This document shows, one piece after another, positions 20,901-40,147 of a stretch of 40,147 nucleotides of DNA; the first letter of the stretch is position 1, and each line of letters begins with the position of its first letter. The DNA comes from Caecitellus pseudoparvulus. Lineage: Eukaryota > Protista > Bigyra: Bicosoecida. Location of the stretch: the NCBI GenBank assembly GCA_965644315.1, contig CBFFRQ010000144.1, forward strand, positions 1 through 40,147, read 5' to 3'. The notes under the pieces are model-generated. The model was not told the DNA's origin and ran no database searches. It saw only the letters and a list, made by a program, of their open reading frames with translations. A program made the position numbers and the translations under genes.

Positions 20901-21464
20901 ATTGAGATGTACAAGACCATCCAGATGTCCCTGCTGCCCCCTGCCGAGCGCAAGGTGGACTCCCTGCGCAACGCCTACATCAACCTCGCCATCAACTCCT
21001 ACTACGCCGCAGAGCCCGGCCCCCCCAAGTTCACCCGCACCCTGGACATGGACCCCATCATGGGCATGCCCAACCGGGCAGTTCCCAACAACCACACCAA
21101 GTGGGAGCGCATGGTGATCAACATCCCCGCGACCGGCACAGTGCAGGAGGTCATGGATGCCGTCAAGGCCTACATCGAGACCACCACCAAGCAGGAGGAG
21201 GAAGCCGGCACCGCGCCCGAGGGCAAGGGCCCCATCGCCGCCTCTGATGTGGACGTCACCATGCTCGCGGTGGGCACCAAGATGATCTTCTCGGACCTCT
21301 TCCCCGCCCACGCCGCGCGCCTGGCCAGGCCCTTCAAGGAGGTGTACTCTGAAGTCTGCCTGGACGGCGCTGCCCTGACGGAGCCGTACGTGGCAGTGGG
21401 AGCAGCTGCCGAAGCTGGGTCGGACATGGTCACGGTCCCCGAAGCCCAAGTCATCATTGCTTGA
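17953..21464 (+). CDS. UBA1: Ubiquitin-activating enzyme E1; introns 18051..18162, 18228..18330, 18414..18482
   Basis: LYSRQI, VVGSGALGCEFLKN, SNLNRQFLFR, catalytic IPMCTLKNFP, FEKDDDSNHHIDFI, GKIIPAIATTT. The predicted introns restore a continuous frame. Confidence 0.97.
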
Positions 21465-21542: not shown

Positions 21543-22706
21543 TCACGCTCGCCCCACTCCGCGAGATCTCAGCAAGAGCATCGCACGCCGCCCATGCCGA
21601 GTGCTGGTGCCAGCCCACACTGCATCACGCGCCGCTTGCATGAAAGGCTCTCCGTAATGTTGCCAAACGTGGGCTGGGATGGCTCGGTGACCAGTCAGGC
21701 CCAGCACCTCACGCACAGTGTCTGTGTTTCCTTCCTCGCATGCCTCTTGGAAGGCGGCCTCAAGTATACTCGGATCCACTGCGCGCACATTCACTTCCCG
21801 CGCACCATTCAGGGCCAGCAGTTCACGCACAGTGTCTGTGTTTCCTTCCTGACATGCCTCCCGGAAGGCGGCTTCAGGTCCATTCTCATCCGCCGCATGC
21901 ACATCAACTTCCCGCGCTCCAGTCAGGCTCAGCAGCTCACGCACAATTTCTGTTTGGCCATAGTTGCATGCCCACCGAAAGGCAGCCTCAGGTCCAGCCC
22001 CATCCGCCGCGTGCACATCCACCTCCCGCGCCCCAGTGAGGCCCAGCAGCTCACACACAATGTCTGTGTGGCCCATGGCGCATGCCGCTCGGAAGGCGGC
22101 CTCAGGTCCAGCCTGATCCGCCGCATGCACATCCACTGCCCGCGCCCCAGTCAGGCCCAGCAGCTCACGCACGATGTCCGTGTGGCCATACCAGCATGCT
22201 TTATGGAAGGCGGCCTCAGCTCTACCCCATGCAGCCGCGTGCACATCAACTGCCCGCGCACCAGTCAGAGCCAGCAGCTCACGCACAATGTCGAGGTGGC
22301 CATAGTGGCAGGCCCACCGGAGAGCAGCCTCAGGTCCAGCCTGATCCGCCGCGTGCACGTCCACCTCCCGCACCCCTGGCAGGCTCAGCAGCTCACGCAC
22401 GATGTTGGTGTGGCCATTGCGGCATGCCAGTCGGAAGGCGGCCTCAGGTCCACGCTCATCTGCCGCGTGCACATCCACCGCCAGGACACCTGTCAGGCCC
22501 AACAGCTCGCGCACCAACTTCAGGTGACCTTTTCTGCACGCAAGCCGGAACCCAGCAGTTGTGTCTGAACTCGCCAGTGCCTCGGCCAAAGTGGCAGTCT
22601 GAGTGCTGGCTTGCTGCAAGATGAGCCACAGCTGATCTGCAGCTGCCACTTTACAGGCAGCGTTCCACTGGGTCTCGAGGTGTGCTGGGCTTCGAAAGGT
22701 TGCCAT
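21543..22706 (-). CDS. Ankyrin-repeat protein (8 units of the same 38-aa family as the 4971 gene)
   Basis: Repeats of GPEAAFRxACxxGHTDIVRELLxLTGAREVDVHAADxx; the last unit ends LTGHRAIP, as in the paralogue (LTGHRRIP). Confidence 0.88.
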   Translation of the reverse strand: MATFRSPAHLETQWNAACKVAAADQLWLILQQASTQTATLAEALASSDTTAGFRLACRKGHLKLVRELLGLTGVLAVDVHAADERGPEAAFRLACRNGHTNIVRELLSLPGVREVDVHAADQAGPEAALRWACHYGHLDIVRELLALTGARAVDVHAAAWGRAEAAFHKACWYGHTDIVRELLGLTGARAVDVHAADQAGPEAAFRAACAMGHTDIVCELLGLTGAREVDVHAADGAGPEAAFRWACNYGQTEIVRELLSLTGAREVDVHAADENGPEAAFREACQEGNTDTVRELLALNGAREVNVRAVDPSILEAAFQEACEEGNTDTVREVLGLTGHRAIPAHVWQHYGEPFMQAARDAVWAGTSTRHGRRAMLLLRSRGVGRA

Positions 22707-23447: not shown

Positions 23448-23476
23448 GCATGGCAATATACTGGAAATGGGCAAAA
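23448..23476 (+). repeat. Left terminal inverted repeat
   Basis: GCATGGCAATATACTGGAAATGGGCAAAA. Confidence 0.85.
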
Positions 23477-23599
23477 CATTCTCGCACCACCTCCAGTATT
23501 TTCGCTGACAGGGCGCAATTTTGGCATCCCATAGAGGATATTTGCAGGCTTTGATTTATTGTTTAGGCTGCCACCAGCCCCACAGGCGCTGTTTTTGGC

Positions 23600-26059
23600 A
23601 TGGACCAGCCCATTTTCGCGGCGTCGCCCACGGCCCTTCCAGCGCCGTCTCCGCCATTGAACTTGCAACAAGGGCCCTTCCTGATTAAAGTTTCTTCGTC
23701 TGACGCCCGTCACTGCGTGCACTGTGCGCGCTGGAGGCAAGAGCAGGCTGAGGGGTTGCGTGCCTCGCAGGGTCGCTCCTCTGGAGCTGACCTCGTGACC
23801 AGGACACACTACCACTGTTTGCGAACAGGGTGTCACTGGCGAGGGAAGAATCCCAGTAACTTCTCCAACCACCGATGTGGGCATGCGCGGGCCATGAAGC
23901 TGGCGGCAGGTGCGTGGCGTGGTGGTGCCTCAAACAGGCGTTTCGCCCAGCTGCGCAGCCAGCACGCCGAGCCTCCCTGCGGCGCAGAATCGGGTGCCTC
24001 ACACCATGTAGTGGTAGACATGCCTAAACCTTCCTCAGAAGTTGTGGTTGCCGATCCATGTGCGTGCTAAAGCGCCTTGCTCGCCGCGCCACAGCGTCAC
24101 GGCAATGGTGCTGCCTCTGCGCAGGCACTGGCTCTGGCTCTGGAGGCGTTGGCAGCCCAGCCATGGATCCCCCCAGCTCCAGCGGCGAGTGGATGCTGTA
24201 TCCACGGGCCATCGCAGACATGGCTGAAGAGTTCTTCCGCCGAAGCCTTCCAGGCGACCAGGGCACCACTTGGTTCGCCCAAGCCTTCGCCAGCGCCCGA
24301 GCCATGGTGCGGGCCACTGCTGCTACAGCCAGTCAGCTGCTGCTGGGGGCCGCCCCTGCCGGCGACGAGTTCATCCAGCAGTGCACCAAAGACGACGTAG
24401 CTCCTGAGTGCCTCCCTGAGGCTCCCTCTGACTTGATCGTGCCTCCCAGCGCGGCTGCCCTGGCTGGCTCAGTGGGCTCAGTGCTGGGCATGCTCATGGC
24501 ATCCCCTGCGCAGCCTGTGACCCTGGGACTGCCTGGGGCGACCGTCATGGCCACCCGTGCAGCCCTGAGCCGGGCTAGGCTGCCGCCTCAGCATGGAGAA
24601 GGGGTGCTGATGGCCTTTCCTGACAACCCTGCTGAGCTGGGCGTCGCGTCGGCGCTGCGAGATGGGCAAGGCTCCGTGGACCCAGCACTGAGGAAGGATG
24701 CAACTGAGAAGCAAGGCAACATGCTGTACAGGTCTATCGAGCCGAGTGAGGATATGGAGAGCAAGGCAGGCACCCTGGCAGGCACAACACACGCCGTCAC
24801 ATGGGACTCCTGGGTTGTGCAGCCTGCCGCGAATGCTGCACTGGCAGGCTCACTGTACGAGCACTACATCCCCACCCGCAAGCAGCCCGTCACCCTGGAC
24901 GTCCAGCCAGTGGGCCTCGCTGCAACCCACCCAGCCTATGGCGAGCAGTTACCCTTCCTCCCTCGCCCTCCTGGTCCCTGCCCCAGCAGGACTGCGCCGT
25001 GGAGCCCAGACGGCCACAGCCTGCCAGCCAGTGAAGCATACCAAACAGCTGCAGCCGCAGCACGGTTGCGCTTCGAAGTCGCAGTGGCCGCACAAGCTGG
25101 CAGGCCAGCCCAGGTGGGTGACCGGCCCATCCCCGCAGAGGTCCAAGCGGACCTGGACCAAATGGAAGCAGACCTGAAGGGAAGCATGGCGCACCCCTCC
25201 ATGCGCACCGAACTCACAGTTTTATCCGTGAGTAGGAAGGGCTGGACTGATGTGCGGCAGCAGCTGCCATGGGGCACCTGTCCCAAGGCAGGCAGCTGCC
25301 ACGGCACGTGCAAGTGGACGACCAATGGCACCCACAGCGCGAAGCAGTGTCTGTTCACCAGATTCAAGGGAGTGCAGCCTGTAACAAAGGCGACTCTGCT
25401 CTGCAGAAGCCATCGATTTGCTGTCACAGTGGGGTCGCGATCCTTTTGGAGGGTCAAGCACCAGCTGTACCCCGACGTTCTCCCAGATGGGTCGCCCCCG
25501 CCTGGCATGGAGGGCCGCAGGCTGGTCCTTTCCATACCATGCGCAATCGCTGGCACCATTCTGATGGACGAGGCTGCTGCTACGAGTCTGTGGGAGAACT
25601 ACGTCGCTCACCGCCGCGAAGGCATGGTCAAGGTGCAGAAAGCCTTCTGGCGAGACCTCATGCGGCCCTTCGAGGACAAGGTAGACTCCTGGAAAGAGAA
25701 GCTGTTCAAGAAGCACGCCTCTCTCGGTGAATGCCCTGAGGTGCAATATGCGCTGGCCCAAGCCGTGCGCCGAGCCAGAAAGCATGTTGTGGGCAACGTG
25801 CGATCCAGCACAAGTGTGAAGGCTCTGCGTGATGCCATCCTGCACATCTACCATGCCGCTGTCAAGCCGCATGTGGAGGGGTACCTGCAGGCCCTTGCAC
25901 GCTTCGCTGACACCATCAGCGTGGACTGGACCTTTGCATCTTCGGCCCGGGTGCACGTCGCGGGCCCACAGCCACTGCGCAGGGCCAGGGCTGCGCCAGC
26001 GAGCCCACAGCACGAGCTGGGCGAGGAAGAGCCTGAAGATGAGCTGGATGGGGAAGAAG

Positions 26060-26105
<46 letters not shown>

Positions 26106-27828
26106 CGATAGCGATAGCGATAGCGACGAGGGTGCAGAGGAGGAAGCCTGTGCGGGCAGCCGAAGCCGGGCCGCACAGGCCTCAGGCAAGACTCGGTGGC
26201 GAGTTGCTCCCTGCATAGCCACGGTTGTGGGCCGGTACGGTTTTATCCTACAACCTCCAATGTTCACGGGCTACGAGAGCGCGGCAAACTTGGCCTGGGT
26301 CCTGGGCTTAGTGCTGCACAGGCTGAAGGGGCACTTGCGGGAGCGCGGCCCGGCGGCGTCCCACCCCAGCGTCATCACAGTGGACAACCTCAGAACCCAC
26401 CAGCACGCCCTGCAGGCAATCATTGACGTGCACTTTCCACTTCTGCCGAAAGGCGTGGTGCGGTTTGCGGTGGATCCGTGGCACTTCGCCAGCCGCGTGG
26501 CCAAGGCCATTCCCAAGCGAGCCACGCACCAGGATGGTCCACTCTTCATCAAGCTGTGGTTCGACACAGTGGAGTGGATCCGAACACCTGCACTGGGCGT
26601 GGTGTCCCCCAAACTGCTCCTTCCAGAGGATGCCATTGCTCGGCAACGAGCCGCCTTGAGCTCTGCTGAGCCTGCCGACATCCAGGCCTTCATCGACCGC
26701 GCCTGCCGCATCTTGCGACGCAAGTCCCTTTCTGACTCCCAAAAGACACAAGTCCAAGAATTCCTCACAGACTATGGGTGGGCCCTGTATGGGCCAGGGC
26801 GTGCAGTTGGGGCTGCCGCAAGGCTTCGCAAGCACGTCCCCCTCGCTCTGGCTGCTGCCTGTGCCACTTCAGCAGGCATGCTGCAGCGTCGGTGCCAAGG
26901 AGATCACTTCACACCAACTCAGGCTGGGCTGCACCCGAGCGGAGTGCCCATCCTTCCCCTCCACATTGGACCCTGCACTCACAAACAGGCCTCAGCGTCA
27001 CTGGAGCGCACTGCAAGCCTGTTTCGCCAGGTGTGGGCGCCTCAATCGCGGGGTGGCGCAGGCACCGCCGTGCAAGGCCGCATCACACGCGGCATCCTGG
27101 ATCCCAAGTCCTCCTTCCCCGCCGTTCGTGCTCGGGTCAAGGCGTCATTGCAAAACGACGTGGGGCTTCAAGGCTTGCTGGATGGGCGTGACGCGGTGCA
27201 CGGCGCCACCACCACCGGGGGCAATGAGAGCCTGCACTCAGGCATGCGGCACATGGTGTCAGCAGGCACATCCACTCGCTTGGATGTTGCCGAGATGAAC
27301 CTCACGCTGTACTGGCTGGAGAAGAACCAGGCCACTGCTGCCAAGCTGCTGTCCACGTATGCGAGCGATGAATGCCGCCAGGAAGAGACACACAGCAAGT
27401 CTCAAGACGTTGCGGCCACTCTAGAGTTTTGCTCTGTACTGACTGGTGATGTAGGTGGCTTTGCTCTAGGTACCCTGACAGCAGCCTTGCAGAGCTGCCC
27501 GGATACGCCTGCCCCGACCACATTCGAGGAAGCCAAGGCCTTTGGCCTGCCCCTGTACCACAAGGCCAGCTCGTCCGTCACGCCAGAGGTTGAAGAAGAC
27601 ATTCGCCGACTGCTCAGGGAGGAGAGGGAGACGCAAGAGGCCAAGACTGCCAAGTACAGCCCAAACACAGCGGCGTCCCGCATCGCCTCCGCTGCTCACG
27701 CCACTGTCGGCAAAGTCGAGCGAGTGGTGAGCATGGTGCAGCGAGAAGAAGAGCAGTTTGTCCAGCGGGAGAAGCGAGCAAGGCATCATGGTCTCAGTTC
27801 GCCGAGTGCCAAGCGTGTGCGCCGCTAA
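23600..27828 (+). CDS. Putative DDE transposase (~1387 aa) with an N-terminal Cys/His zinc-finger exon; intron 24060..24124
   Basis: Candidate catalytic residues TISVDWTF (D), VITVDN (D), AVDPWHF (DxxH signature of Mutator/Kolobok/hAT/P-type enzymes) and TTGGNESLHS (E). The exon 1 motif is CVHC..HYHC..C..HRC. A GTGCGT..GCAG intron joins the ORFs in frame. The C-terminus AKRVRR is NLS-like. Confidence 0.75.
26062..26127 (+). repeat. (AGCGAY)11 coding microsatellite giving a Ser-Asp tract
   Basis: Directly visible; lies between the first two putative catalytic Asp motifs. Confidence 0.95.
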
Positions 27829-28463
27829 GGGCTGGAGCAGGGCCACCGGCTCTCCGGCTGGGTGAAGGGAGTTTCATCGACACACAGGCCAGTCAGGAGC
27901 CCGAGGCTAGACGCGTGGTATGAGAGACTTGCAGAATGATTCAACATTTCATCAGACTACCTTCATGTAACGGACCTCTCAGCTGTTCAGAGCCGGTAGA
28001 GTGCAGCCCAATGCAGAGATATCGCAGGCCTCGTGGATTGGCGTGGTGAAGCAAACCGAAACGCCACACCCGCACTGTGCAGCGCTCTCTGGCGGGAGAG
28101 AGACAACCCACGGGCAAGCTTTGGACAGGAACACTTCCATAAATCTATTAGGATTGTATGCAGCACAAATTTTTGGAAATTTCGTCTCCTGTTGGGGCAT
28201 TATCTCCATGGAGCGTTGGAAAGCCGTAGAAACACCTTGTCGCCGTCTCCAAGCCAGGTCACGATGTGTTATGATGCGGACTTGCCCGTGATGGATTTCA
28301 GCGATGGTGCAGGTCGCCGCGACCAGCACTCAACACACTTGAAACGCAGCGAGGCTACTGGCTCTGTGAGGCCCCCTGCGCGCCCCTGGACTGGCGTCTG
28401 AGGTTCGCACGAACCACTGCAATGTGCCTCATTCGCGCACATGATCATTGGGCACCGCACCAA

Positions 28464-28492
28464 TTTTGCCCATTTCCAGTATATTCCCATGC
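28464..28492 (-). repeat. Right terminal inverted repeat
   Basis: Reverse complement reads GCATGGGAATATACTGGAAATGGGCAAAA. Confidence 0.85.
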
Positions 28493-29453: not shown

Positions 29454-31454
29454 ATGGGGACGGCTCTCTCATCTGCGGTGATTCAGCTCGCAGGTGTGGG
29501 AGGGAGCTGCGGAATTGCGGGTGGAGACAAGGAGGCCAGTGACTTTGTCTACACCAGTTTTCCAGGCGTTCCAGGGTCTGGGTACCGGTACGATGCAAAG
29601 ACCCCAGTTGGGCCCTTTGAGCACCTTTACCTGTCAGGTGCGAGGTGGTACGAGGAGGAACAGCTGGCCCTGTGGCGTGGGATGGTAGAGAACCCTCATC
29701 TTCCAGTGGTGCTTCCCCTTCCGTGCCAGCTTCCCGCACTTAGGGTGCTACGCAATCTCGAGGTTGGGCTGCACCTCGATACAGCCGTGTTTGGGGCATA
29801 CTTGCTTTCAGGCCCACGAGGCACCGGCAAGACATACCTCTTCCAAACCTTTGCTGACCACGCTCACGCTTCCCAAGGAGCAGCCTCAGCAGAGGACGGC
29901 AAACTTACTATCTGTTGCTACCTCAACTTGGCTGCTCACACGGCATCAGATTGTGACCAATTTGACATTCGCCTGCTGGGCATGATCGTGGATCATCTGC
30001 GCGCGGCAAAGCAGCGCTTGGACCTCGCTGAGACGCTGTCTGAGCTTGCTGGTGCTGCGCCAGACAGGGTCGAAGAATTCGCGCCAAAAGTGACTCATGG
30101 GGCGTTTGCGCTACTGACCGCAACCCAAACCAAAGTGAGCGTAGCAAGCGCCTTGCTGAAGATGTCGGGTGTAGGTGTGATTGTCTTTGTTGATGAAGCC
30201 GAGTGCGTGTTCAAAGGCCGACATTTCTCCGCTGCATGCGCTGAAGCTTGGCTGAATGTTCTGGATGCCGTGCCCCGCATAAGAAACTCCGCCATTGGCA
30301 TGGTGCTTTGCACGAGGTTCTCCCGCACGCACCTGCTGTTCAACTCTGGCAGCCGGCGGGATGCCTTTACGCCGGAGTACACCCACGCACACATGCGCCG
30401 TGACTGGGGCAGCCGGCTCAAACACATTCAATTGCAGAGTTGCCGCTGGACGCAGGAATCGCTCATGGCCTACATTCTTTCACATGTAGGCAGCGCTTCA
30501 GGCCCACCCTTCGACTTGTACACGCGGGATGCTGCGTGGCGGCCAGACCCTGGCAATTTAAAGACTGCAAGAGCCTTGGACAGGCTGAGCCAGTTTTGTC
30601 CGGAGGACACAGACGACGGGAGCCCGCACGGTCGGCTGGAAGCATTCTTGGAGCATGTGTTGAAGGTCTGCGGCCACAGCCCTGAGCGTGTGTGGGAGTT
30701 GACACAGGAGTTGGCCAAGCCAGGCTTGTCATCTTTGACGTCATGGCCTGCGCCTGAGGTTTGTGAAGAACAGCGCATTGCACGGGCAGGCAGTCCGACC
30801 AAACTTCGTGTGATGAGCGTGTTCTTGTCAGGGCTTGATCCTGACATGTCGGTCTGGCTGCGTAGTGACTCGCTTCTGACGTTTGTTCCCGCTACCGTTG
30901 TCGTGTGGAGACAGAAGCTCATTCAGAGCCTTGTCCCTTCAGATGACGTGCTCCAAGCTGACGCGAACAAGACTGGCAGGAGCGTGTTGGCTGTCGAAGC
31001 ATCAGCCCACGAAGAAGCGAACGCGTGGATAAGCGACGCAGTTGACGCGGGGTGGTTGGAAGATCTGGGCCGCAACATTGCGCTCGGCAGTCTACTGATA
31101 TACCGCTACTGTGAGAGCCATGGGGTCCACCCTCGTGCAGCTGATGACATGGGCCACCCAGGGTCTGCCATTGAAGCTGAGCTGCCCGTCACCCCCGAAA
31201 GTGCTTCAAGCGACATGGAGCACCACGTGCAGCTTGCAGGTATGCGCGGTGCGGAAGGCGATGGCCTTGCCAAGCAGGGGGGGCTGTTGGCTTCGGCTTG
31301 TGAAGCCCGACGTACGCTATCACGACCACCCACAAAAGCTCGTGCCCGACAAGCACGGAAAGCAGGCAGGGCAGCAGCATCGCTGGGTCGAGCAAAGCGC
31401 CGCAGGAGCTCTGCAGCACACGAGCCACGGGCTAAGCGAAAAGCACGAATGTAA
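29454..31454 (+). CDS. P-loop NTPase (AAA+/STAND-like), function unknown
   Basis: Walker A YLLSGPRGTGKT and Walker B VIVFVDEAE; possible wHTH (AWISDAVDAGWL); basic C-terminus. Confidence 0.75.
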   Translation: MGTALSSAVIQLAGVGGSCGIAGGDKEASDFVYTSFPGVPGSGYRYDAKTPVGPFEHLYLSGARWYEEEQLALWRGMVENPHLPVVLPLPCQLPALRVLRNLEVGLHLDTAVFGAYLLSGPRGTGKTYLFQTFADHAHASQGAASAEDGKLTICCYLNLAAHTASDCDQFDIRLLGMIVDHLRAAKQRLDLAETLSELAGAAPDRVEEFAPKVTHGAFALLTATQTKVSVASALLKMSGVGVIVFVDEAECVFKGRHFSAACAEAWLNVLDAVPRIRNSAIGMVLCTRFSRTHLLFNSGSRRDAFTPEYTHAHMRRDWGSRLKHIQLQSCRWTQESLMAYILSHVGSASGPPFDLYTRDAAWRPDPGNLKTARALDRLSQFCPEDTDDGSPHGRLEAFLEHVLKVCGHSPERVWELTQELAKPGLSSLTSWPAPEVCEEQRIARAGSPTKLRVMSVFLSGLDPDMSVWLRSDSLLTFVPATVVVWRQKLIQSLVPSDDVLQADANKTGRSVLAVEASAHEEANAWISDAVDAGWLEDLGRNIALGSLLIYRYCESHGVHPRAADDMGHPGSAIEAELPVTPESASSDMEHHVQLAGMRGAEGDGLAKQGGLLASACEARRTLSRPPTKARARQARKAGRAAASLGRAKRRRSSAAHEPRAKRKARM

Positions 31455-31698
31455 TGTTAAGGCAGCATGTTGGTTAATGCAAGTGAAGTGCTGGTCGGGC
31501 AGCGGGATTGCGCGTCGAGGTGTACCTAGCCTGGCCTGGCGCGGGTTAGATGAGATGCCATCGTTTGGCTTGCAGATCAGAGTGGTGTCAGGAGCCCCAA
31601 TCTGCTCCCTAGTGCAGCAAAAACGTTCTGTTGAGCGCAAAGGTGCTCGGCAATAAAGCCCGCTCGGGTACATGTTGGTATCATGTTTTTGACCAACG

Positions 31699-32650
31699 AT
31701 GCCAAGCTTCACGCAACACCCCGTGCACCCGCCATTGTCAGCTTGCTTTGGCTCGAGGCACAACGAGGAAGAGGTTATCGTGGTGGATGCGCCACGCCCC
31801 AGCATGCCTACCCCCAACGACATCATCTTGGTGGGCACGTCACATGGGCGTCTGCTGGCTGTGCTCGGCGCGCCGCGCTCTGCACATGTCACGGAGTCAT
31901 TGTGGATGGACTGGCGGGTGGTGGCTGAGATGGCACCCCAACACGAGGGCAGCATCACGCAGATCGTGCCAATGAGCAAGGACTTCCGACACAAGGTGGA
32001 ACCGTGGATCAGCTCCTCCATGCCGACTCTGCGGGTGGACAGGGAGTCCGCTGCCATCGACTTCCTCTTCATCACCACCGGCGCCGATTGCAAGATAAAG
32101 CTGATGACTCTGGACATGGACAGTAACTTCATCAGCTTGTCTGAAGCAAGCCACGCAGAGGATCCCTCCACACAAGTGTCCAAGGTGGACCTGAGCGGGC
32201 TTGGCGCCAGGCATCGACCCTCAGCGGTGGAGGCCCGTGCGGAGCATTCTGCACAGCTGACGGGCTCTGGCGCCAGCGGCCTGCACGAGTCGTCATCGTC
32301 TGTGCTACAGGATGGCGCTGGCGAGTCCAAGGCACCGCCTCCTTTGCCCATCCCTGCCTCGGGTCGGGCAGACAGCCCAGGCGGATTTGAAGCAGAAGAG
32401 AAGCAGAAACCTGGCGGTGGGCAAGCCAAACCCGCCCAGGGTTGCTCTCCCGGCCGCCTCTCCTCCAGCGGCAACCCTGGTGAGGATGATGAGGATCTGG
32501 ACGAGCACAAGGAGGACGCCATGCTGAAGATGAGCACCATGCGGCTCCTCACAGGGCAGAGCAAGAAGAAGGGCTTCGGCTCGCCAGATTCCAAGGAACA
32601 CCCTCGACGCGGCTCAGCCATGTCGCCCAAGGGCGGCGACCAGGTGGCAG
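31699..32650 (+). pseudogene. WD40-like host ORF truncated by the viral insertion
   Basis: IILVGTSHGRL, QHEGSITQI and FITTGADCKIKLM are WD40-like strands. The GC-rich frame runs into the AT-rich element and stops at 32682. Confidence 0.55.
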
Positions 32651-33101
32651 AAAAAAAAAGGGATGGTGGTGGTTTAGTGTAAAACACCACCCCACGGTAG
32701 ATACATACGTAATGCGTGGCTAAAGCCACTATATTTAATGGTTCATTATATAGTAATTTAATAGTCAATAAAATATATATTATTTAAGGTATATTTAAAA
32801 ACAAGAAATAGTAAATTATAGGAAATATAAAAAAGTAATAAGTTAAAACATTATTTCCTATTTCCTTAATTTCTCTTTTTTTTATGGATTTTTAAATATT
32901 ATTATAATTTTCTTAAAATAGACTTTGAGAAAGAAAATATAAGATATAGGAAAAGTCTCTCTTAATCGCATGTGTTATACTTTTAGTGAATGAGTAAGTA
33001 AATATCTCTCTTAATTGCGGTGTGTGTCCCCTTCAAGAACAATTTAAACGCAATATTAAAAAATAAATAACATAAAAGTGAATTATGTATTAGTAATATA
33101 T

Positions 33102-34643
33102 ATGAGTATGAAACCGAAAATTTCTATGAAAAATAGAAAATCATACTATAAAAAGGAACTAACATTTAGTAGTAGTAAATCTTTTGTAAGGAATTTTATT
33201 ATTGAAATTCAAGATGTAGAAGACCTAAAAAATGAAGATTTTTATATACACATAATGTTATATTTTACTCATGAAAAAGAAAGTAATGAAGAATATTTAA
33301 ATCATATTAAGTTAAATATAGACCTTTATTACAATTTAAGAAAAGTTTTATCTTCAGATTTACTAAATGATTATTTTCAACAAAGTGAAAATATTAATTT
33401 ATATGATGAAAGGAATGAATTTAATACAACATATGGTGCGTCACGGATTGGTGGATCAGGGTTGGTTTGAACTCCAGGGGCCCCTGTGATTTGTCACCAG
33501 CGGAGTCGATTTCCACAGTGAGGAGGTGTTGTGCAATATGAATTTACCAGCGCCTCCCATCCACTCATGTATGCCTTGTTGGGTGTTCTTTTTTTCGTGC
33601 AACTGAGGGTGCGGCAGTACGCGGGTGTTTGTAGCCGTTTGTGCTCGTGTCTCGATCGGCAGCCCTGCCCCAGCGCAACGTAGGCCCGCTCGTTCGCCTA
33701 AAACGGATACTCATCTGTTTCTCCGCTTTGCACTGAATTGCCACTCAGTGCCTTGGTCTTGGTACTTTCCTCAGCAAGTCTCGAGCACAGTTTGAATGGT
33801 GAGCATAACGGCAAGATTTTGAGCGTTGCTCACAGGTCAAGGTCTCCCCTACCGTGAAAGCAGGCGGGACTTCAAGCCCAAGGGAGGCTAGATCGGCGTG
33901 CGAAGTCACAAAGGGGGACTGCATTGAGTCCACCGGAGCACACCATTCTTGCAGCTGTGAGGGTTTGAAACGGTGTGCGGAAATCGCTACGCATACCGTC
34001 ACACTTCCCCCCCTCCTTTGCCAAATAGGCGATTCTCTACAACACAAAGGACGCCCCGGTGACGGGGGGCATGTTGGGCACAACTCCTGGCTCACTTTCC
34101 TTCTCTTGTCTGTCTCGGGAGCGCCCCTTTGACCCGAGTGGTGCAAACAACCTACAAAGTCCAGCTACCATGCTCTCTGAATTGGGCATCCCCGTGGATG
34201 GACACATCCTGGGCGACGCAATCCTGCGCCTTTCGAACAGAAATGCCCCCGTCTTTGTATTGGACCCCGCTCTCATCCCCGAATTCTCCTTCCAGAAGCT
34301 GGACAGTCATGGACTGTGCTCCCGGCCGAAGTGCAAGGCACATGCATCAGCCGTGTTTCATGCTACCCACTGCATGTTTTACCATGCAACAAGGAAGAAC
34401 CTGAACAAGGCACACGCTGAGTTCCAAGACGTGTTCACTGAGCGTGTGAGTAAAGACAATTTTTCATTTGTAGCGTTTAAGTTAGAAAAGAAAAAGCATT
34501 TTTATGGATATAATTGCTTAACTGATGATCAATTTAATTGGTTATGGTTCATTATACATGAGTATATTAGTAGACATATGAAAAGTGGAACTAAAAATTC
34601 ACGTAGTAGATACATGAACGCAATACTAAAAAATAAAGTATAA
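33102..34643 (+). pseudogene. Viral hypothetical gene interrupted by a ~1 kb GC-richer insert
   Basis: AT-rich ORF halves 33102-33434 and 34446-34643 are in the same frame. Removing 33435-34445 (1011 nt) gives ...NEFNTTY-VSKDNFSF... Confidence 0.6.
33435..34445. mobile_element. GC-richer foreign insert inside the viral element (TE remnant or captured host DNA)
   Basis: Sharp composition boundaries; no TIR or clear TSD; contains an ATG ORF start at 34170. Confidence 0.7.
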
Positions 34644-34689
34644 GAGTATAGTATAGGGGTTTAGTGTTTTCCCCCTTTGAGTTTTATAG

Positions 34690-34720
34690 AATTATCTTCA
34701 TAATAATTATGAGGAGAATT
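34690..34720 (+). terminator. Intergenic hairpin, possible 3'-end signal
   Basis: AATTATCTTCATAAT-A-ATTATGAGGAGAATT, an imperfect palindrome ~47 nt after the stop at 34643. Confidence 0.35.
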
Positions 34721-34737
34721 TAAAAAATAAAAAAATT

Positions 34738-34750
34738 ACTTAAAGATAAA
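34738..34750 (+). promoter_or_regulatory. Conserved viral upstream motif
   Basis: ACTTAAAGATAAA, starting 38 nt before the helicase ATG. Confidence 0.75.
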
Positions 34751-34775
34751 TTTCGTATTGTAATTATAATAGCAA

Positions 34776-36479
34776 ATGGTCGTATTCAGTGTAATGACAA
34801 TTAAGAATTTACTTAATGAAAACAAAATAGAAGATGTCAAAGAGTATGTGCAAAAATACTTTTTTAAGACAACAGATAGTTATTTTTTTAAGAATGTGCA
34901 AACTGGGAAATATGATAACTTCAAGCAAAAAGACTTGAGACAATATATTCCAAAAGATTTAAACAATAAAGAATATATTGAAGAGAACAATATAAAATCA
35001 AATAGACAAACAAAATTCAATTTGTTTGATTACATGGTAAGTTCTGAATTTTGTGATTGTTCCAATAATGTACAATATGGTATATTTCCAGATACAGATG
35101 ATGATATTGTATCCATTACAAGAAATATTAAGGGTAAAGCCTTAATTCAAAAATATTTAAATATGGTTAAACCTTTACCTTTTGATTTAAGTGAATGTAA
35201 AGACATAAAAGAGAAAGATTTTTTAGAAGAAATTGAAGTTATTGATAATCATATTAAGGAAGTATTATGTGGGGGAAATATTGCTATGTTTGAATATGTA
35301 CGTTTATTTTTTGCTTTTTCAATTGCTGGTGTAAAGGTGCGAAAAGCAATCTTTATGTTGTCAGAAGAAAGAACCGGAAAAGGCATATATTTAAACTTCT
35401 TAGATCGTGTGCTTGGCGAAAGAATGCTTAAAACATCCTCAACCGAAACTATAACAAAGTACACAAAACCATTAGAAGGGGTTGTATTAGTAAATATTGA
35501 TGAGCTACCAGAACTAAGAGGAAATTTACTTATACAAGATAAACTGAAAGGATTAATAACTGAAGATAAATTTGATTGCCGTGATATGTACAGTGTAGGA
35601 TACACTCAAACAAATACATTTAACATAATTATAACGACAAATATTGAAGGATCAATTAATTTGAGTCAATCAAACAAAGAGCGGTATATATGCCCCGATG
35701 TATCAGACCATCGTAAAGGTGATTTTAAGTATTTCCAAAGTGTCATTAAGGCTATGAATTGTAAGGGGGTAATACCTGCATATTTTAATCATATGAGAAA
35801 GCTTTATGAAGAAAACAAAGATTTTAATTTTGATATTATGCCAAATTCAAGAACAAGGGATGAAAAAATTATATCTGCTCTTCCTCCTTTATACAAGTAT
35901 ATCAAAGATGAATTTATATTTAATAATGCTGATATGGATATAGAATGCAAGCAATTATTGGATGAATACAATACGAACGCAAAATTTAAAATGACCCTTC
36001 ATAGATTACACAAAGATTTAAAAAAGATAGGTATTATTAAAACTACTGTATCTGTAAATGGTTCAACAAAGAGAAAATTTATTGTACCTGTTGAAACATT
36101 ACGCAAAATATTTATAAGTAAAAGATGGTATGACCCAGAAATAGAAGATGATGAAGCACCAGAAGAAGAGGTATCAGTTGATGACATGGATTATATTAAA
36201 GTTTTGTATGCAAAACATCCTGAAAAGTTTAAAGAGTTTATGTCAATTTTAGAAGGGAAGAAACCAAAACCAATAACAGTAGAATCAAAAAAATCAAAAC
36301 CAAAAAAAGTTAAACTATCTGAAAACAAGAAAATATTCAAGAAAGAAAAGGAAGTCAAAGCAAAAGCAAAAAAAAAGAAAACAGAAAAGGAAATTAAAGA
36401 ATACAAAAAGAAAGCAACAAAAGCAAGTAAGAACGGAAAATTAATAACTAAAGAAAATGATAATTTAGGAATTTTTTAA
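34776..36479 (+). CDS. D5-like superfamily 3 helicase
   Basis: HIKEVLCGGN..F.YV pre-ATPase region, Walker A ERTGKG, Walker B LVNIDE, KLKGLITE, motif C IIITTN; Lys-rich tail. Confidence 0.88.
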   Translation: MVVFSVMTIKNLLNENKIEDVKEYVQKYFFKTTDSYFFKNVQTGKYDNFKQKDLRQYIPKDLNNKEYIEENNIKSNRQTKFNLFDYMVSSEFCDCSNNVQYGIFPDTDDDIVSITRNIKGKALIQKYLNMVKPLPFDLSECKDIKEKDFLEEIEVIDNHIKEVLCGGNIAMFEYVRLFFAFSIAGVKVRKAIFMLSEERTGKGIYLNFLDRVLGERMLKTSSTETITKYTKPLEGVVLVNIDELPELRGNLLIQDKLKGLITEDKFDCRDMYSVGYTQTNTFNIIITTNIEGSINLSQSNKERYICPDVSDHRKGDFKYFQSVIKAMNCKGVIPAYFNHMRKLYEENKDFNFDIMPNSRTRDEKIISALPPLYKYIKDEFIFNNADMDIECKQLLDEYNTNAKFKMTLHRLHKDLKKIGIIKTTVSVNGSTKRKFIVPVETLRKIFISKRWYDPEIEDDEAPEEEVSVDDMDYIKVLYAKHPEKFKEFMSILEGKKPKPITVESKKSKPKKVKLSENKKIFKKEKEVKAKAKKKKTEKEIKEYKKKATKASKNGKLITKENDNLGIF

Positions 36480-36486
36480 TTAAATG

Positions 36487-36499
36487 ACCTAAGGATAAA
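36487..36499 (+). promoter_or_regulatory. Conserved viral upstream motif
   Basis: ACCTAAGGATAAA, starting 37 nt before ATG 36524. Confidence 0.75.
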
Positions 36500-36523
36500 T
36501 TACGTATTTACGATATATTAGAT

Positions 36524-36868
36524 ATGGTAAATATGAATAAGTATATTGTAAGAAGAAATGAAGAGAAGGTAGGAGGACATACTCAACATGATATGTATAT
36601 TGAAGCAAAGGATGGAGAAGAAATAAATTTTGATAGCATTAAAGAACTATATGGTCATATTGTTCCCAAGATAGATAAAAAGTATGATGTTGATGAACTT
36701 GTTGTACTTGGACTTCGTAAAGATGGTATTATGAATATTAAAGGGTATGGTTCAACAATTGACGAAACATTGGATAATTTAGATGAGTACTTAAATGGTA
36801 AAGTAAAAGTACAATCAAAATTTCAATCTGTAAGATCATTAACTATTTCATGGTTAGTGGAAGAATAA
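36524..36868 (+). CDS. Viral hypothetical protein (114 aa)
   Basis: ATG ORF preceded by the conserved upstream motif. Confidence 0.75.
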   Translation: MVNMNKYIVRRNEEKVGGHTQHDMYIEAKDGEEINFDSIKELYGHIVPKIDKKYDVDELVVLGLRKDGIMNIKGYGSTIDETLDNLDEYLNGKVKVQSKFQSVRSLTISWLVEE

Positions 36869-36880
36869 AATAATAAAATG

Positions 36881-36893
36881 ACTTAAAGATAAG
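36881..36893 (+). promoter_or_regulatory. Conserved viral upstream motif
   Basis: ACTTAAAGATAAG, starting 31 nt before the PolB ATG. Confidence 0.75.
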
Positions 36894-36911
36894 ATTAGTA
36901 TTTTATAATAT

Positions 36912-38150
36912 ATGATAGTATATTATAAAGACTCAGTATCAAGAACTTATTTTTCATATGATGGAGGAAAGGTAAAGAAGAGCTACAAAAAACCAAATGG
37001 GTATGAGATGTTAAAGAGCTTTGGAATAGATGCAGATGAAAACGGACTCATAGAGTATTATGAAAAGATTCAAGAATATTCAAATGAATTAGAAAAATAC
37101 TTATCCAATATACCAAGTACACGAAATCCTAAACGAATGTTATTTAAAGGACTGGATCTAAGATTCTTTAAAGAGGATGGATGTAATACCTCACTAATGA
37201 ATACTTTACTGATCAATACACGCAAAGATAAGAAGAATTTGAAATCCTATGAACATATGACATATGAAGAATATAAATTTATGGATCAATCATATGATTC
37301 AGGTTTAATAGCAGGTACACCATACAAAGGTAAAGTATATGCTTATGATCAAAAGAAATTTTATTCAATGACTTATGGATGTAGAAAAAGAAACTTTAAG
37401 TTTCCAGTAAAAAGAGGAAGATTTGAAACATTAACAGAGACACCCGAAAAGTTTGAATATGGATATTATCATATTAAAGTTGTTTCATCAGATCCAAGAG
37501 CAAAATTTCTTATTGGCTTTTCTAAGAAGAATTATTATGATCATTTTACATTGAATAAACTGAAATTCTTTCGTGATTGGGTCGGTCTAAGTCTTAAATG
37601 GGAAATTATACAGGATGGTAAACCAAATGCTTTAATATATGATAATGATACATTAGTAGATTCACATATTATTTTTGGATGGTATCAAGATATACTCATG
37701 AAAGCAAATGATAAGCTATCAAAGAACCCTCTTATTAAGTTTATGTTAAATAATATGTTTGGATATCAAAAGATTAAACATCGGCCAATTTATAGAAAAC
37801 TATCAAGTATTCAAAGCAAAACCGAAGAGGAGCAAAAGAATATTTTACCAATTCTTAGTAAGTCTTATGTAAACAAGAAAGGTGAACGTGTGTATTATAC
37901 AGTAAAAAGAGAGCGTATATTCTTATATACAACTGCAAGAATGGGATATTTTCTACCTGCCACTTGTAGAGCTAAGATGTCAAATTTAATAGCTCCAATT
38001 CTTGATGATGTAGTAAGGATATATATTGATGGTTTCATATGTAAAAAGAATCATGATGAAGTAATAACAAAGTTTATTTGTCAGGATCATAAGTACCACA
38101 ATAAGACAATAGATATTAAAAGCTCACAAACAATTTACTTTTTGGATTGA
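36912..38150 (+). CDS. Divergent, short family B DNA polymerase-like protein
   Basis: Motif A-like VYAYDQKKFYS, motif B-like KFMLNNMFG, motif C-like RIYIDGF, in the correct order; no evident exonuclease domain. Confidence 0.72.
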   Translation: MIVYYKDSVSRTYFSYDGGKVKKSYKKPNGYEMLKSFGIDADENGLIEYYEKIQEYSNELEKYLSNIPSTRNPKRMLFKGLDLRFFKEDGCNTSLMNTLLINTRKDKKNLKSYEHMTYEEYKFMDQSYDSGLIAGTPYKGKVYAYDQKKFYSMTYGCRKRNFKFPVKRGRFETLTETPEKFEYGYYHIKVVSSDPRAKFLIGFSKKNYYDHFTLNKLKFFRDWVGLSLKWEIIQDGKPNALIYDNDTLVDSHIIFGWYQDILMKANDKLSKNPLIKFMLNNMFGYQKIKHRPIYRKLSSIQSKTEEEQKNILPILSKSYVNKKGERVYYTVKRERIFLYTTARMGYFLPATCRAKMSNLIAPILDDVVRIYIDGFICKKNHDEVITKFICQDHKYHNKTIDIKSSQTIYFLD

Positions 38151-39145
38151 TTCTTCTTTTTTTCTTCATATTCCTTTACTATATCTGGAACTTGTTTTTT
38201 AATTCTTATTTTGTTTTCCCAAGTTGCATTTTTCTTAGGAAAACCTTTCCACCATACTTTATATTGTCCTCTCCTATCATCTATTATTTCTCTGACTTCA
38301 AATGTTTCTTCACCACTGGCTAGTTTAAGTTCTGATTCTGCAAATGATACATTTGGTAAATAATTTAATTGATATCGTACTGGAACATTTCCTTTATATG
38401 CCAGTATTTGTTTAATTTTTCTAGCTTTCTTACTAAATCTTCTATCTCCTGTTCTAAATCCTCCTTGAACGGGATTTCCTAATGAATCTTCGGCCTGAGA
38501 TGGTGTCAGCTTATAATATACAAGATCACCTATTTTAAATTTTGGAGAGATCATCTTAATTTTTGCAAATTTAAATTTGTTTGGTTCAACTTTTCTTATT
38601 TTGTTTAATTTAGTTCTTACCTGAGATAAAATATCTGTCCATTCTCTATAAGGTTTATTAGTTTCTTCTTCTTTTTTGTTCATGTATCCATTAAATAGTC
38701 TTCCAAGTGTTTTATTTAATCTTTCCACATTTGCCATTTGCTGATGTCTTCCTTTCATTGCTGTTTTTTTCAGAATGGATTCATCAAATAGAAATTTGGC
38801 AAAATCACCCTTAAATTCTCCTCCTCCATCTGTTCTTATGCTTGCTTCTGGTAAATTAATATGTTTTCGTTTAATCATCTTTTTAAATGCACCTAAAACA
38901 GTATTTGGTCTTTTAGTTTTTAGTGGTTCAATATCAAATTCATTAGTCCATAAGTCAACAACAACTAATAAATATTTAAATCCTTCTTTGGTCTTTGGTA
39001 GCTCTAATAAATCAGCTTGAAAATTATAATCTTCTTCGGGATAGATTACCCCTTTAACTTTTGTAAACTGAGTTTCTTTAGGTTGTGGTTTAGTAAAAGT
39101 CTCATCAATTCCCAGTTCAGATATTAACTCTTTTATTTTGCTCAT
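38135..39145 (-). CDS. Retroviral-type (rve) DDE integrase with C-terminal chromodomain
   Basis: FQADL (D), YLLVVVDLWT, IRTDGGGEF (D), NVERLNKTL (E); FKIGDLV SH3-like region; chromodomain FEVREII..YKVWWKGF...ATWE. Confidence 0.93.
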   Translation of the reverse strand: MSKIKELISELGIDETFTKPQPKETQFTKVKGVIYPEEDYNFQADLLELPKTKEGFKYLLVVVDLWTNEFDIEPLKTKRPNTVLGAFKKMIKRKHINLPEASIRTDGGGEFKGDFAKFLFDESILKKTAMKGRHQQMANVERLNKTLGRLFNGYMNKKEEETNKPYREWTDILSQVRTKLNKIRKVEPNKFKFAKIKMISPKFKIGDLVYYKLTPSQAEDSLGNPVQGGFRTGDRRFSKKARKIKQILAYKGNVPVRYQLNYLPNVSFAESELKLASGEETFEVREIIDDRRGQYKVWWKGFPKKNATWENKIRIKKQVPDIVKEYEEKKKNQSKK

Positions 39146-39167
39146 TATATAATTAATTAATAAAATA

Positions 39168-39180
39168 ACTTAAGGATAAA
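39168..39180 (+). promoter_or_regulatory. Conserved viral upstream motif
   Basis: ACTTAAGGATAAA, starting 30 nt before ATG 39198. Confidence 0.75.
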
Positions 39181-39197
39181 ATGCGTTTTAAGACGTA

Positions 39198-39482
39198 ATG
39201 AATAGATTCACACAAGAAATAAAGAAAGTTAAGAAAATGATGATCAATGAAACGGACGAAGAGAAACTACGAAAAATGAAATATGTCATACAGGACATCA
39301 AAAGGTATAAAAAGAAAATGGATACATTGTTCTTGCAATTGGAGGATAATCCAGCCCATGAAGTAGATATTGATAATTTACATGATGAATTTACATCATT
39401 TCAAGATAGCTATCCGGAATACATAGAATACTATGATGAATACTATGAATCAGATTCGGAAGATGAATTAATAATTAAATAA
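39198..39482 (+). CDS. Viral hypothetical protein (94 aa, acidic tail)
   Basis: ATG ORF preceded by the conserved motif. Confidence 0.7.
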   Translation: MNRFTQEIKKVKKMMINETDEEKLRKMKYVIQDIKRYKKKMDTLFLQLEDNPAHEVDIDNLHDEFTSFQDSYPEYIEYYDEYYESDSEDELIIK

Positions 39483-39486
39483 AATA

Positions 39487-39499
39487 ACCTAAGGATAAA
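39487..39499 (+). promoter_or_regulatory. Conserved viral upstream motif
   Basis: ACCTAAGGATAAA, starting 37 nt before ATG 39524. Confidence 0.75.
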
Positions 39500-39523
39500 A
39501 TACGTTTTAAAGGATATACTAAA

Positions 39524-39832
39524 ATGAAAATTGTTAATGCGAGATATTGTACTTTAAATGGAAAGCTATTGACTTGTCCCAGACAGAACACATCTATCAG
39601 ATTTGAAGATAAAGAATTAATTCTAACATTCACAACTCCCTTATTTATAACTAACGTTCATGCATATGATTTTAAGAGCTGTGTAGAGGTAGATTCAGCA
39701 AGCTATAATGTAATACTAAATTTTCCAGATATTGGAGTATCACTTGTTTATAAGTTTACTAAATCAGGATTTGAAAAAATTAATGATGCAATTAATGAGA
39801 GATTAAAACTTATTGGTGAATCAGAAAAATAA
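39524..39832 (+). CDS. Viral hypothetical protein (102 aa)
   Basis: ATG ORF preceded by the conserved motif. Confidence 0.7.
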   Translation: MKIVNARYCTLNGKLLTCPRQNTSIRFEDKELILTFTTPLFITNVHAYDFKSCVEVDSASYNVILNFPDIGVSLVYKFTKSGFEKINDAINERLKLIGESEK

Positions 39833-39887
39833 CTCAATTTATTATTTCAAGAAGCAAAACATAATTATTTATATTTTGTTTCAAGTA

Positions 39888-40067
39888 CTATTCTTTCATT
39901 TTATTTTGATCATCCAATACATCAATAATTATTTTTATTCCAAAAGTTTCAATGAGATCTTTTGTATTCTGTTCAATGATTTTTTCTCTTTTTTCTTGAA
40001 TGGCTTTCGTCATAATGGAATACCAGATGCCATTGTGTTTTCTCCTTTGCTTTGATCTTGAAATCAT
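39888..40067 (-). CDS. Small viral hypothetical protein (59 aa)
   Basis: ATG at 40067 preceded by TATATAAT; charged composition like the other viral ORFs. Confidence 0.45.
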   Translation of the reverse strand: MISRSKQRRKHNGIWYSIMTKAIQEKREKIIEQNTKDLIETFGIKIIIDVLDDQNKMKE

Positions 40068-40087
40068 ATTATATAAGTAATATATAA

Positions 40088-40147
40088 ATGACAGAATTTT
40101 CAAAAACTGTTTATTCAATGACAGAATTTAAAAAAGACTTTGAAACA
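40088..40147 (+). CDS. Start of a viral ORF running off the window (MTEFSKTVYSMTEFKKDFET...)
   Basis: TATATAA-ATG and an open frame to the window end. Confidence 0.45.
   Translation, partial: MTEFSKTVYSMTEFKKDFET

What the first reader, a model, noticed from the sequence alone, without database searches (positions are those of the whole stretch)
32649..40147. Endogenous AT-rich Polinton/mavirus-like virus integrated into a host gene
Seen: a sharp composition boundary at ~32650 cutting a GC-rich WD40-like ORF, followed by intronless genes for an SF3 helicase, a PolB-like protein and an rve integrase with a chromodomain. Established: mavirus carries this triad, integrates into Cafeteria genomes and can protect host populations against the giant virus CroV. 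Inference: this is a related but divergent endogenous virophage or Polinton-like virus, possibly a new lineage given its unusual polymerase and promoter motif.
Basis: partly seen in the sequence, partly recalled or inferred. Interest (0 to 1): 0.85.

Follow-up and report, generated by a model that had tools for sequence, protein, structure and literature searches.

The report
Integrated virus with split primer protein
The left end of a small AT-rich DNA virus-like element sits inserted in a repeated gene of a marine flagellate, and unlike its known relative mavirus it carries a stripped-down DNA polymerase with its predicted primer protein as a separate neighbouring gene, an arrangement also seen in five related elements.

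Summary
Observation confirmed, interpretation partly supported. The element starts at 32652. Uninterrupted host alleles break off at 32651 in two public runs, and the same terminus joins three other GC-rich flanks; no contig bridges this particular junction. SF3 helicase, mavirus-type polymerase and rve-chromo integrase are real. That gene is homologous, through relatives, to the terminal-protein domain of 600-700-aa mavirus-type polymerases. The 412-aa polymerase lacks that domain and the vOTU protease. All 6 distinct elements examined show this split; I did not find it in print. Capsid genes lie beyond the window. The nearest relative (72-85% identity) has a Polinton-like, not virophage-like, capsid, so 'virophage' and antiviral protection are unsupported. 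The host is likely a bicosoecid other than Cafeteria burkhardae. An unchecked note of this scan on other DNA (e1-7302590) also mentions a probable terminal protein. Verdict: new variant of a known kind.

The parts
31699..32651 (+). Host ORF fragment interrupted by the element; multi-copy; family not identified (WD40 not supported by Pfam)
   Evidence: empty allele continues in frame in X1 and X20; other copies diverge upstream of 31765/31780
32647..32651 (.). Candidate target-site duplication (last 5 host bases); right copy not in window
   Evidence: inferred from the junction position; untested
32652..33068 (.). Left terminal repeat, inferred 417 bp; starts with A8-GGG; imperfect subterminal hairpin at about 32665-32691
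   Evidence: terminus on 3 other flanks; contig break, alternative continuation at 33068 and about 1.7-fold depth in X1 and X3; hairpin z -2.3 and -3.4
33102..33438 (+). 5' part of the first viral ORF (unknown function; 180 codons in the uninterrupted allele)
33439..34442 (+). GC-rich (0.55) insertion: the first 1 kb of a longer multi-copy mobile element, with the N-terminal part of a 477-aa ORF; class unproven (retrotransposon likely)
   Evidence: joint 33438->34443 in 4 of 4 runs; contigs of 4,029 and 4,641 bp continue past 34443; P0009 99% identical; cluster member on a 6,411-bp contig
34443..34643 (+). 3' part of the first viral ORF, now in frame with the insert's ORF (190-aa chimeric frame 34071-34643)
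34733..34759 (+). 27-bp putative promoter motif, also at 36482, 36876, 39163 and 39482
   Evidence: 5 matches against 0 by chance; positionally conserved in L003, with the core also in L001, L006, L007
34776..36479 (+). SF3 helicase (DUF5906), 567 aa; Walker A at 197, Walker B at 239
36524..36868 (+). Predicted stand-alone terminal (primer) protein, 114 aa; invariant Tyr89 is the candidate linking residue
36912..38150 (+). Short protein-primed family B polymerase, 412 aa, lacking TP and vOTU domains; no exonuclease motifs recognised
38135..39145 (-). rve integrase with C-terminal chromodomain, 336 aa; D-D-E motifs present
39198..39482 (+). 94-aa ORF of unknown function, 56% identical to the syntenic ORF of L003
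39524..39832 (+). 102-aa ORF of unknown function, 58% identical to the syntenic ORF of L003

Best explanation
32652-40147 is the left end of an integrated element, likely a Polinton-like virus of a bicosoecid flagellate, that was likely inserted by its own integrase and is predicted to copy its ends with a separately encoded 114-aa primer protein and a stripped-down polymerase. Shown: the boundaries, the empty host allele, the terminus on other flanks, the gene identities, and the homology of the 114-aa protein family to the N-terminal domain of long mavirus-type polymerases. Inferred mechanism: the rve-chromo integrase joins the terminal repeats to host DNA. After excision or infection, the terminal protein would be nucleotidylated on Tyr89 and prime the linear ends; the exonuclease-less polymerase would extend while the SF3 helicase unwinds. 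Because the primer is already a separate polypeptide, the vOTU protease that mavirus is thought to use to cut it free is no longer needed and is gone. Replication genes share one promoter motif, likely an early class. Capsid genes are predicted further right, as in L003. This copy was later hit by a host mobile element, of which 1 kb remains in the first ORF.
For: Junction. Synteny and identity with L003: o114 77%, PolB 72%, INT 85%, o94 56%, o102 58%, and 77% DNA identity over 3.4 kb. L003 continues with a lipase-like ORF, an A32 ATPase (E 1.8e-12) and a double-jelly-roll MCP (TM 0.78-0.82). Polymerase family: of 149 stored top hits, 97 are 370-450 aa and 26 are 555 aa or more. Long forms read N-terminal domain, GG linker, C...GHY protease motif, body; short forms begin at the body. 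A profile of the N-terminal domain of 22 long forms ranks the ORF upstream of the short PolB first in L001 (E 4.5e-6, 402 ORFs) and L008 (E 1.5e-5, 78 ORFs). A profile of four other loci's upstream ORFs ranks the window's 114-aa ORF first (E 3e-6, 371 ORFs). HHalign of the six ORFs against the domain gives probability 48, E 1.9e-4, against at most 0.4 for 30 column-shuffled controls and 0.9 for the vOTU control. The invariant Tyr lies before the last strand, where PMC11071308 places linking residues. Gene order helicase-ORF-PolB holds in 6 of 6 distinct elements.
Against: No contig bridges this junction in 4 runs. No capsid gene or right end is in the window, and the last ~375 bp do not match L003. 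Relatives with the same replication module carry only distantly related ATPases, so the capsid type is borrowed from one relative. The N-terminal-domain profile does not hit the window's ORF directly. HHalign with only three ORFs gave probability 6.8. None of the 7 long polymerases looked up carried an informative name, so equating their N-terminal domain with the published D1/TP rests on architecture. No expression or activity data.
Confidence: 0.72

Rival explanations
1. It is a true mavirus-type virophage (EMALE-like) whose capsid module lies beyond the window and which is reactivated by a giant virus.
For: Same helicase/pPolB/rve-chromo set, low GC, 5' position of the integrase and nested GC-rich insertion as low-GC EMALEs (PMC8547959). 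EMALE01 and EMALE02 share a 5' module but differ in capsid type, and in Halocafeteria replication modules move between virophages and PLVs, so a PLV-type relative does not settle the question.
Against: The closest relative has a PLV-type capsid. The polymerase lacks the TP-vOTU of mavirus. None of the 7 upstream 60-nt regions holds the CroV late motif TCTA (read).
Confidence: 0.15
2. It is a capsid-less self-synthesizing transposon or transpoviron-like element that uses the same replication and integration module.
For: Only replication and integration genes are in the window. Capsid-less members of this polymerase group exist (PMC13215967). The right end of the window is variable between copies (loose ends at 39849-39991).
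Against: The nearest relative, collinear over six genes, is an 18-kb contig with ATPase and MCP. L001, L006 and L007 also carry packaging-type ATPases.
Confidence: 0.08
3. The junction at 32651|32652 is an assembly chimera between a repeated host gene and a viral contig.
For: The host flank is multi-copy and no contig from 4 runs bridges the junction.
Against: The break falls exactly at the element's natural terminus, defined by three other flanks, and inside an otherwise open host frame. Host and element overlap by at most 1 base, too little for an overlap-based misjoin (inference).
Confidence: 0.05
4. The 114-aa ORF derives from the terminal-protein domain but now only binds DNA or the polymerase, and replication is primed otherwise (host or giant-virus primase, or hairpin).
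For: Identity to other members is only 17-22%. There is a subterminal hairpin.
Against: The Tyr is invariant in 6 of 6, with a Gly three residues on in 4 of 6. The gene is kept directly upstream of the polymerase in 6 of 6 elements. The hairpin is imperfect and not terminal.
Confidence: 0.15

Closest known systems
Mavirus and low-GC EMALEs (types 1-4) of Cafeteria burkhardae (PMC8547959, PMC10945749)
   Same: Low-GC insertion in a GC-rich bicosoecid genome, often in exons; SF3 helicase, exonuclease-less pPolB and rve-chromo integrase near the 5' end; terminal repeat in the 0.2-2.3 kb range; invaded by a GC-rich mobile element.
   Different: Different host (UBA1 58% identical to the Cafeteria entry). 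The polymerase is 412 aa without TP-vOTU, and TP is a separate gene. No TCTA motif. The nearest relative has a PLV-type capsid, which among EMALEs is described only for EMALE02.
pMVRE group 1 (pPolB-carrying mavirus-related elements; PMC13215967)
   Same: Palm-retaining truncated pPolB with DUF5906 helicase, RVE and chromodomain; endogenous in protists.
   Different: The parts read and a term search do not discuss terminal proteins or OTU domains. I did not place this polymerase in their tree.
Adenoviruses, PRD1 and the coral polinton with a separate TP gene (PMC11071308)
   Same: Terminal protein encoded apart from the polymerase; same predicted small alpha/beta domain with a linking residue before the last strand.
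   Different: Adenoviruses and the coral polinton keep a vOTU domain on the polymerase, and all family B polymerases other than the mavirus-type are said to keep the exonuclease. Here vOTU is absent and no exonuclease motifs were recognised. The TP (100-135 aa) is only the size of the fused D1 domain, leaving no room for the helical extensions that paper credits for TP-polymerase contact.
Endogenous PLVs and virophages of Halocafeteria seosinensis (bioRxiv 10.64898/2026.07.28.741278)
   Same: Bicosoecid host, low-GC elements with TIRs, mobile replication modules at one end, nested transposons.
   Different: Different host (63.6% GC here against 47%); no perfect terminal palindrome here; sequence-level relation not tested.
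Ngaro retrotransposons inside EMALEs (PMC8547959)
   Same: GC-rich multi-copy element inserted in a viral ORF; the parent element may be about 6.4 kb.
   Different: Only a 1-kb 5' fragment is here; RT, RNase H and recombinase were not seen; the left end does not behave like a long repeated A segment in one run's contig.

Membership tests
Mavirus-type virophage / EMALE | Virophage-type MCP, penton, ATPase, protease and MV14 | not testable with these tools
   Beyond the window end. The relative L003 has an MCP with no virophage Pfam hit and no PDB hit at E<0.2 (that mavirus MCP is in the PDB is recalled).
Mavirus-type virophage / EMALE | pPolB with TP-vOTU-PALM organisation | tested here: not met
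   The 412-aa protein starts after the vOTU region; TP and vOTU profiles do not hit it.
Mavirus-type virophage / EMALE | Separate SF3 helicase and rve integrase with chromodomain | tested here: met
Mavirus-type virophage / EMALE | Terminal inverted repeats and target-site duplication | tested here: inconclusive
   A 417-bp repeat is inferred from contig break and depth; the right end and TSD were not seen.
Mavirus-type virophage / EMALE | CroV late promoter TCTA (type 4 only) | tested here: not met
   0 of 7 upstream 60-nt regions. Motifs of other EMALE types are in a figure supplement that I could not see.
Mavirus-type virophage / EMALE | Dependence on, and inhibition of, a giant virus | not testable with these tools
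   Needs infection experiments.
pMVRE group 1 | Palm-retaining truncated pPolB | tested here: met
   Atlas TM 0.76 to a DNA_pol_B_2 cluster for the 72% homologue; motifs A, B and C with a single motif-C Asp; 3 of 18 long relatives hit PF03175.
pMVRE group 1 | DUF5906 SF3 helicase | tested here: met
   E 8.5e-10
pMVRE group 1 | Placement inside the published group-1 clade | not tested
   Reference sequences were not at hand.
Polinton-like virus | Divergent double-jelly-roll MCP, minor capsid protein and A32 ATPase | tested here: inconclusive
   Met for the collinear relative L003 (MCP, ATPase; penton only by position and size), not seen for this copy.
Maverick/Polinton (Polintoviricetes) | Full pPolB with TP-vOTU-EXO-PALM plus RVE | tested here: not met
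   RVE present; TP and vOTU absent from the polymerase, no exonuclease motifs recognised.
Ngaro retrotransposon (insert) | RT/RNase H and tyrosine recombinase ORFs | not testable with these tools
   Only ORF1 was retrieved; no Pfam hit, no PHROG hit below E 0.08 and no viral-contig locus.
Ngaro retrotransposon (insert) | About 6-7 kb with split direct repeats A1...B1A2B2 | tested here: inconclusive
   One cluster member lies on a 6,411-bp contig, but a 4,641-bp contig runs unbroken from a flank through the left end.

The most novel reading that the evidence does not exclude
A large, so far unrecognised lineage of protist-integrating DNA viruses has split the terminal protein off as a minimal ~110-aa gene and deleted both the vOTU protease and the exonuclease from its polymerase. 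It has thus returned to a PRD1-like two-gene priming system, at least twice independently. This locus shows the lineage integrated in a bicosoecid flagellate, under a shared promoter motif and with a swappable helicase cassette.
Probability: 0.65. Interest if true: 0.62.

Novelty: new variant of a known kind. Interest (0 to 1): 0.5.

Why it matters
Integrated Polinton-like viruses and virophages in flagellates are known, so the insertion itself is ordinary. The replication module is not. PMC11071308 states that the terminal protein is fused to the polymerase in all eukaryotic pPolBs except adenoviruses, plus one coral polinton, and both of those keep a vOTU domain. It proposes that vOTU exists to cut the primer free. 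A lineage in which the primer is separate and vOTU is cleanly gone is what that proposal predicts. It also offers a 114-aa plus 412-aa pair with one candidate linking tyrosine for testing the so far purely structural assignment of D1 as terminal protein. The locus further extends virus-in-host, transposon-in-virus nesting to another bicosoecid and links a metagenomic PLV lineage to a host group.

Tried and rejected
No whole genome is held, so the contig could not be extended. AlphaFold models were poor: PolB pLDDT 52 with no PDB match and L003 MCP pLDDT 30; not used. Complex prediction of the 114-aa protein with the polymerase gave no verdict (score 0.14, mark 0.34, alignments not used). Profiles of the short polymerases and of the 114-aa family found nothing in PDB sequences. 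Single-protein scans of viral contigs with PolB, helicase and P0009, and with the 5-sequence PolB alignment, found no locus. The 27-bp motif scan of viral contigs gave one hit, inside an ORF of a giant-virus contig (L004); not taken as evidence of a helper virus. WD40 for the host ORF was rejected for lack of a profile hit. A perfect terminal palindrome of the Halocafeteria type is absent. Identity of the host with C. burkhardae was rejected (UBA1 58%, GC 63.6% against 70%). Both IQ-TREE runs are quick searches; the careful search did not finish. No integrase or helicase tree with named mavirus or EMALE sequences was built, as none were retrieved.
Full report
Observation. GC is 0.636 over 1-32651 and 0.271 over the element without its insert. 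Public contigs fix the boundary. In runs X1 and X20 the host sequence matches to 32651 and goes on with GC-rich sequence that keeps the host frame open for the 10 codons shown. The element's first bases appear at 32651/32652 behind three different GC-rich flanks (two contigs in X20, one in X3). The element therefore has a fixed terminus, occurs at several sites, and this site has an empty allele. None of the 16 of 18 listed pieces from four runs bridges this junction, so it is not independently confirmed. However, host and element overlap by at most one base, which argues against a misjoin (inference). The host flank 31600-32651 is repeated (summed depth about 4-8 times its neighbours in X1, X3 and X20; depth is only a rough guide) and has no Pfam WD40 hit. 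A contig covering 32650-33068 at about 1.7 times interior depth, with another continuation after 33068, suggests a 417-bp terminal repeat (inferred, the right end is not in the window).

Missed insertion. 33439-34442 is 55% GC. All 4 runs laid show the joint 33438 to 34443 with five other bases between, which gives one 180-codon viral ORF. The insert is the first kilobase of a longer element. Contigs of 4,029 and 4,641 bp run on past 34443, and other copies start at 33433-33435 in GC-rich flanks; the element is absent from X20 although virus and host are present. Its ORF is the N-terminus of a 477-aa protein without family, one cluster member of which lies on a 6,411-bp contig, close to Ngaro lengths in the supplement of PMC8547959. 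RT and recombinase were not seen, and the unbroken left end argues against a long repeated A segment. I put Ngaro-like at about 45% and some retrotransposon at about 75%. A later deletion probably removed the rest (inference).

Host. UBA1 (18276-21464) is 58% identical to the NCBI Cafeteria roenbergensis entry and 62% to a EukProt entry whose prefix I recall as Halocafeteria. A quick tree of 44 sequences (the window, the top 36 of 120 listed hits and 7 further named hits) groups the window with both at SH-aLRT 95. The host is likely a bicosoecid, but neither of these two.

Genes and nearest relative. Helicase, integrase and chromodomain are confirmed by profiles, and their catalytic motifs are present. 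A metagenome scan returned L002 and L003, the same virus. L003 is collinear for o114, PolB, integrase, o94 and o102 at 56-85% identity, then carries a lipase-like ORF, an A32 ATPase, a 424-aa double-jelly-roll MCP (25 of 30 feature hits in unnamed clusters; structural TM 0.76-0.82; the single Sputnik-type cluster ranks last of 8 rows), a likely penton and a fibre. No protease was recognised in the 13,962 of 17,988 bases held. The two helicases have no BLASTP similarity, yet the 143 bp upstream (82%) and the last codons and downstream DNA (75%) are shared: a clean cassette swap of a kind already described (PMC8547959). Other relatives (L001, L006, L007) have different ATPases and protease-like ORFs, so this module travels with several capsid modules and the capsid of this copy remains an inference.

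Polymerase and terminal protein. The PolB has no direct Pfam hit, but its 72% homologue matches a DNA_pol_B_2 cluster (TM 0.76), and a profile finds 1,290 relatives at E 0.001 or better. Among 149 stored top hits, 97 are 370-450 aa and 26 are 555 aa or longer; 23 of the 26 match both N-terminal profiles, against 1 of 97 short ones for vOTU and none for the first domain (the profiles were built from 22 of these long forms). Long forms read: ~110-aa domain, GG linker, Cys...GHY protease motif, body. This is the TP-vOTU-PALM layout that PMC11071308 gives for mavirus; short forms begin where the body begins. The single motif-C aspartate is shared by long and short forms and, per that paper, by active mavirus polymerase. 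The ORF directly upstream of the short polymerase (35-138 nt gap) is present in 6 of 6 distinct elements examined: window, L003, L001, L006, L007, L008. The first-domain profile ranks it first in L001 (E 4.5e-6 of 402 ORFs) and L008 (E 1.5e-5 of 78), weakly in L007 (0.04) and L006 (0.98), and does not hit the window or L003 ORF. The window ORF is tied in by a profile of the four other loci (E 3e-6, first of 371) and by pairwise scores with L001 (phmmer E 6e-4, z 9.8). Six-ORF HHalign against the domain gives probability 48, against at most 0.4 for shuffles. Tyr89 is invariant and sits before the last predicted strand. In trees, 94 of 99 short forms (FastTree, 137 rows; 15 fragments under 370 aa dropped; long forms cut to their last 420 residues) and 28 of 30 (IQ-TREE quick, 50-row subsample, support 99) fall on one side without long forms. 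L008 nests among long forms on a long branch, which suggests a second, independent split. The trees are midpoint-rooted and the hits are biased toward the query.

Promoter motif. A 27-bp motif lies upstream of the helicase, TP, PolB, o94 and o102 genes (5 hits, 0 in 100 shuffles). It is kept in position in L003 but absent before L003's structural genes, and its core precedes replication genes in L001, L006 and L007. It is lineage-wide and likely an early promoter; whose polymerase reads it is unknown.

Mechanism. Shown: insertion, mobility, gene identities and homology. Inferred: integrase-mediated insertion, priming by the separate terminal protein on Tyr89, helicase-assisted synthesis by a proofreading-less polymerase, and packaging by a PLV-type capsid. 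Untested: expression, virion formation, giant-virus dependence and host protection.

Literature seen. PMC8547959: abstract, whole Results, supplement 1 parts 1-3 of 4. PMC11071308: passages and whole Results and discussion. PMC13215967: parts 1-2 of 6 and passages. bioRxiv 2026.07.28.741278: parts 1-3 of 5. bioRxiv 2026.06.19.733378: parts 1-3 of 5. Passages only: PMC10120064, PMC7805220, bioRxiv 2026.10.13.758929, PMC11502894, PMC10945749, PMC12721341, PMC12220804. Searches for terminal protein, vOTU and pPolB terms showed no paper describing a separate TP with a vOTU-less mavirus-type polymerase. The library lacks most subscription papers, and figures, figure supplements and bioRxiv supplements were not visible and may bear on this and on the promoter motif.

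Verdict. A real integrated mavirus-related, probably Polinton-like virus end in a bicosoecid: a known kind, with a variant replication module. Interest 0.5.

Noticed in passing
window 23448-28492: 29-bp inverted arms (97% complementary) enclose a 1,266-aa minus-strand ORF without Pfam family; an 11-bp direct repeat lies 3-4 bases outside each arm. It looks like a 5-kb Mutator-type DNA transposon.
   Followed up: partly
window 5010-5993 and 21660-22529: Two ankyrin-repeat genes with a 114-bp period and shared repeat type.
   Followed up: no
window 29454-31454: Long (666-aa) AAA/STAND-like ORF with lower GC3 (0.60 against 0.83-0.91 for two housekeeping genes) just left of the repeated host flank.
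   Followed up: no
window 34071-34643: The insert's ORF runs in frame into the last 66 codons of the broken viral gene, making a 190-aa chimeric frame.
   Followed up: partly
window 33433-33438: Other copies of the GC-rich element share 4-6 bases with the empty viral target at their left end, on different flanks: possible target-site preference.
   Followed up: partly
window 34627-36600 against L003 409-2435: The helicase body is replaced by an unrelated helicase while the promoter region and C-terminal tail are kept.
   Followed up: yes
L004 7991-8014 and 10001-10027: A giant-virus contig holds one exact copy of the 27-bp motif inside an ORF and a similar word upstream of its TFIIB-like gene (name from recall); a lead for a helper-virus promoter only.
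   Followed up: partly
L001 and L008: Both PLV-like contigs are filed inside giant-virus MAG bins (GVMAG names), which may reflect co-occurrence or mis-binning.
   Followed up: no
window 39830-40147: The last ~320 bp differ between copies in other runs (loose ends at 39849, 39881, 39991) and do not match L003.
   Followed up: no
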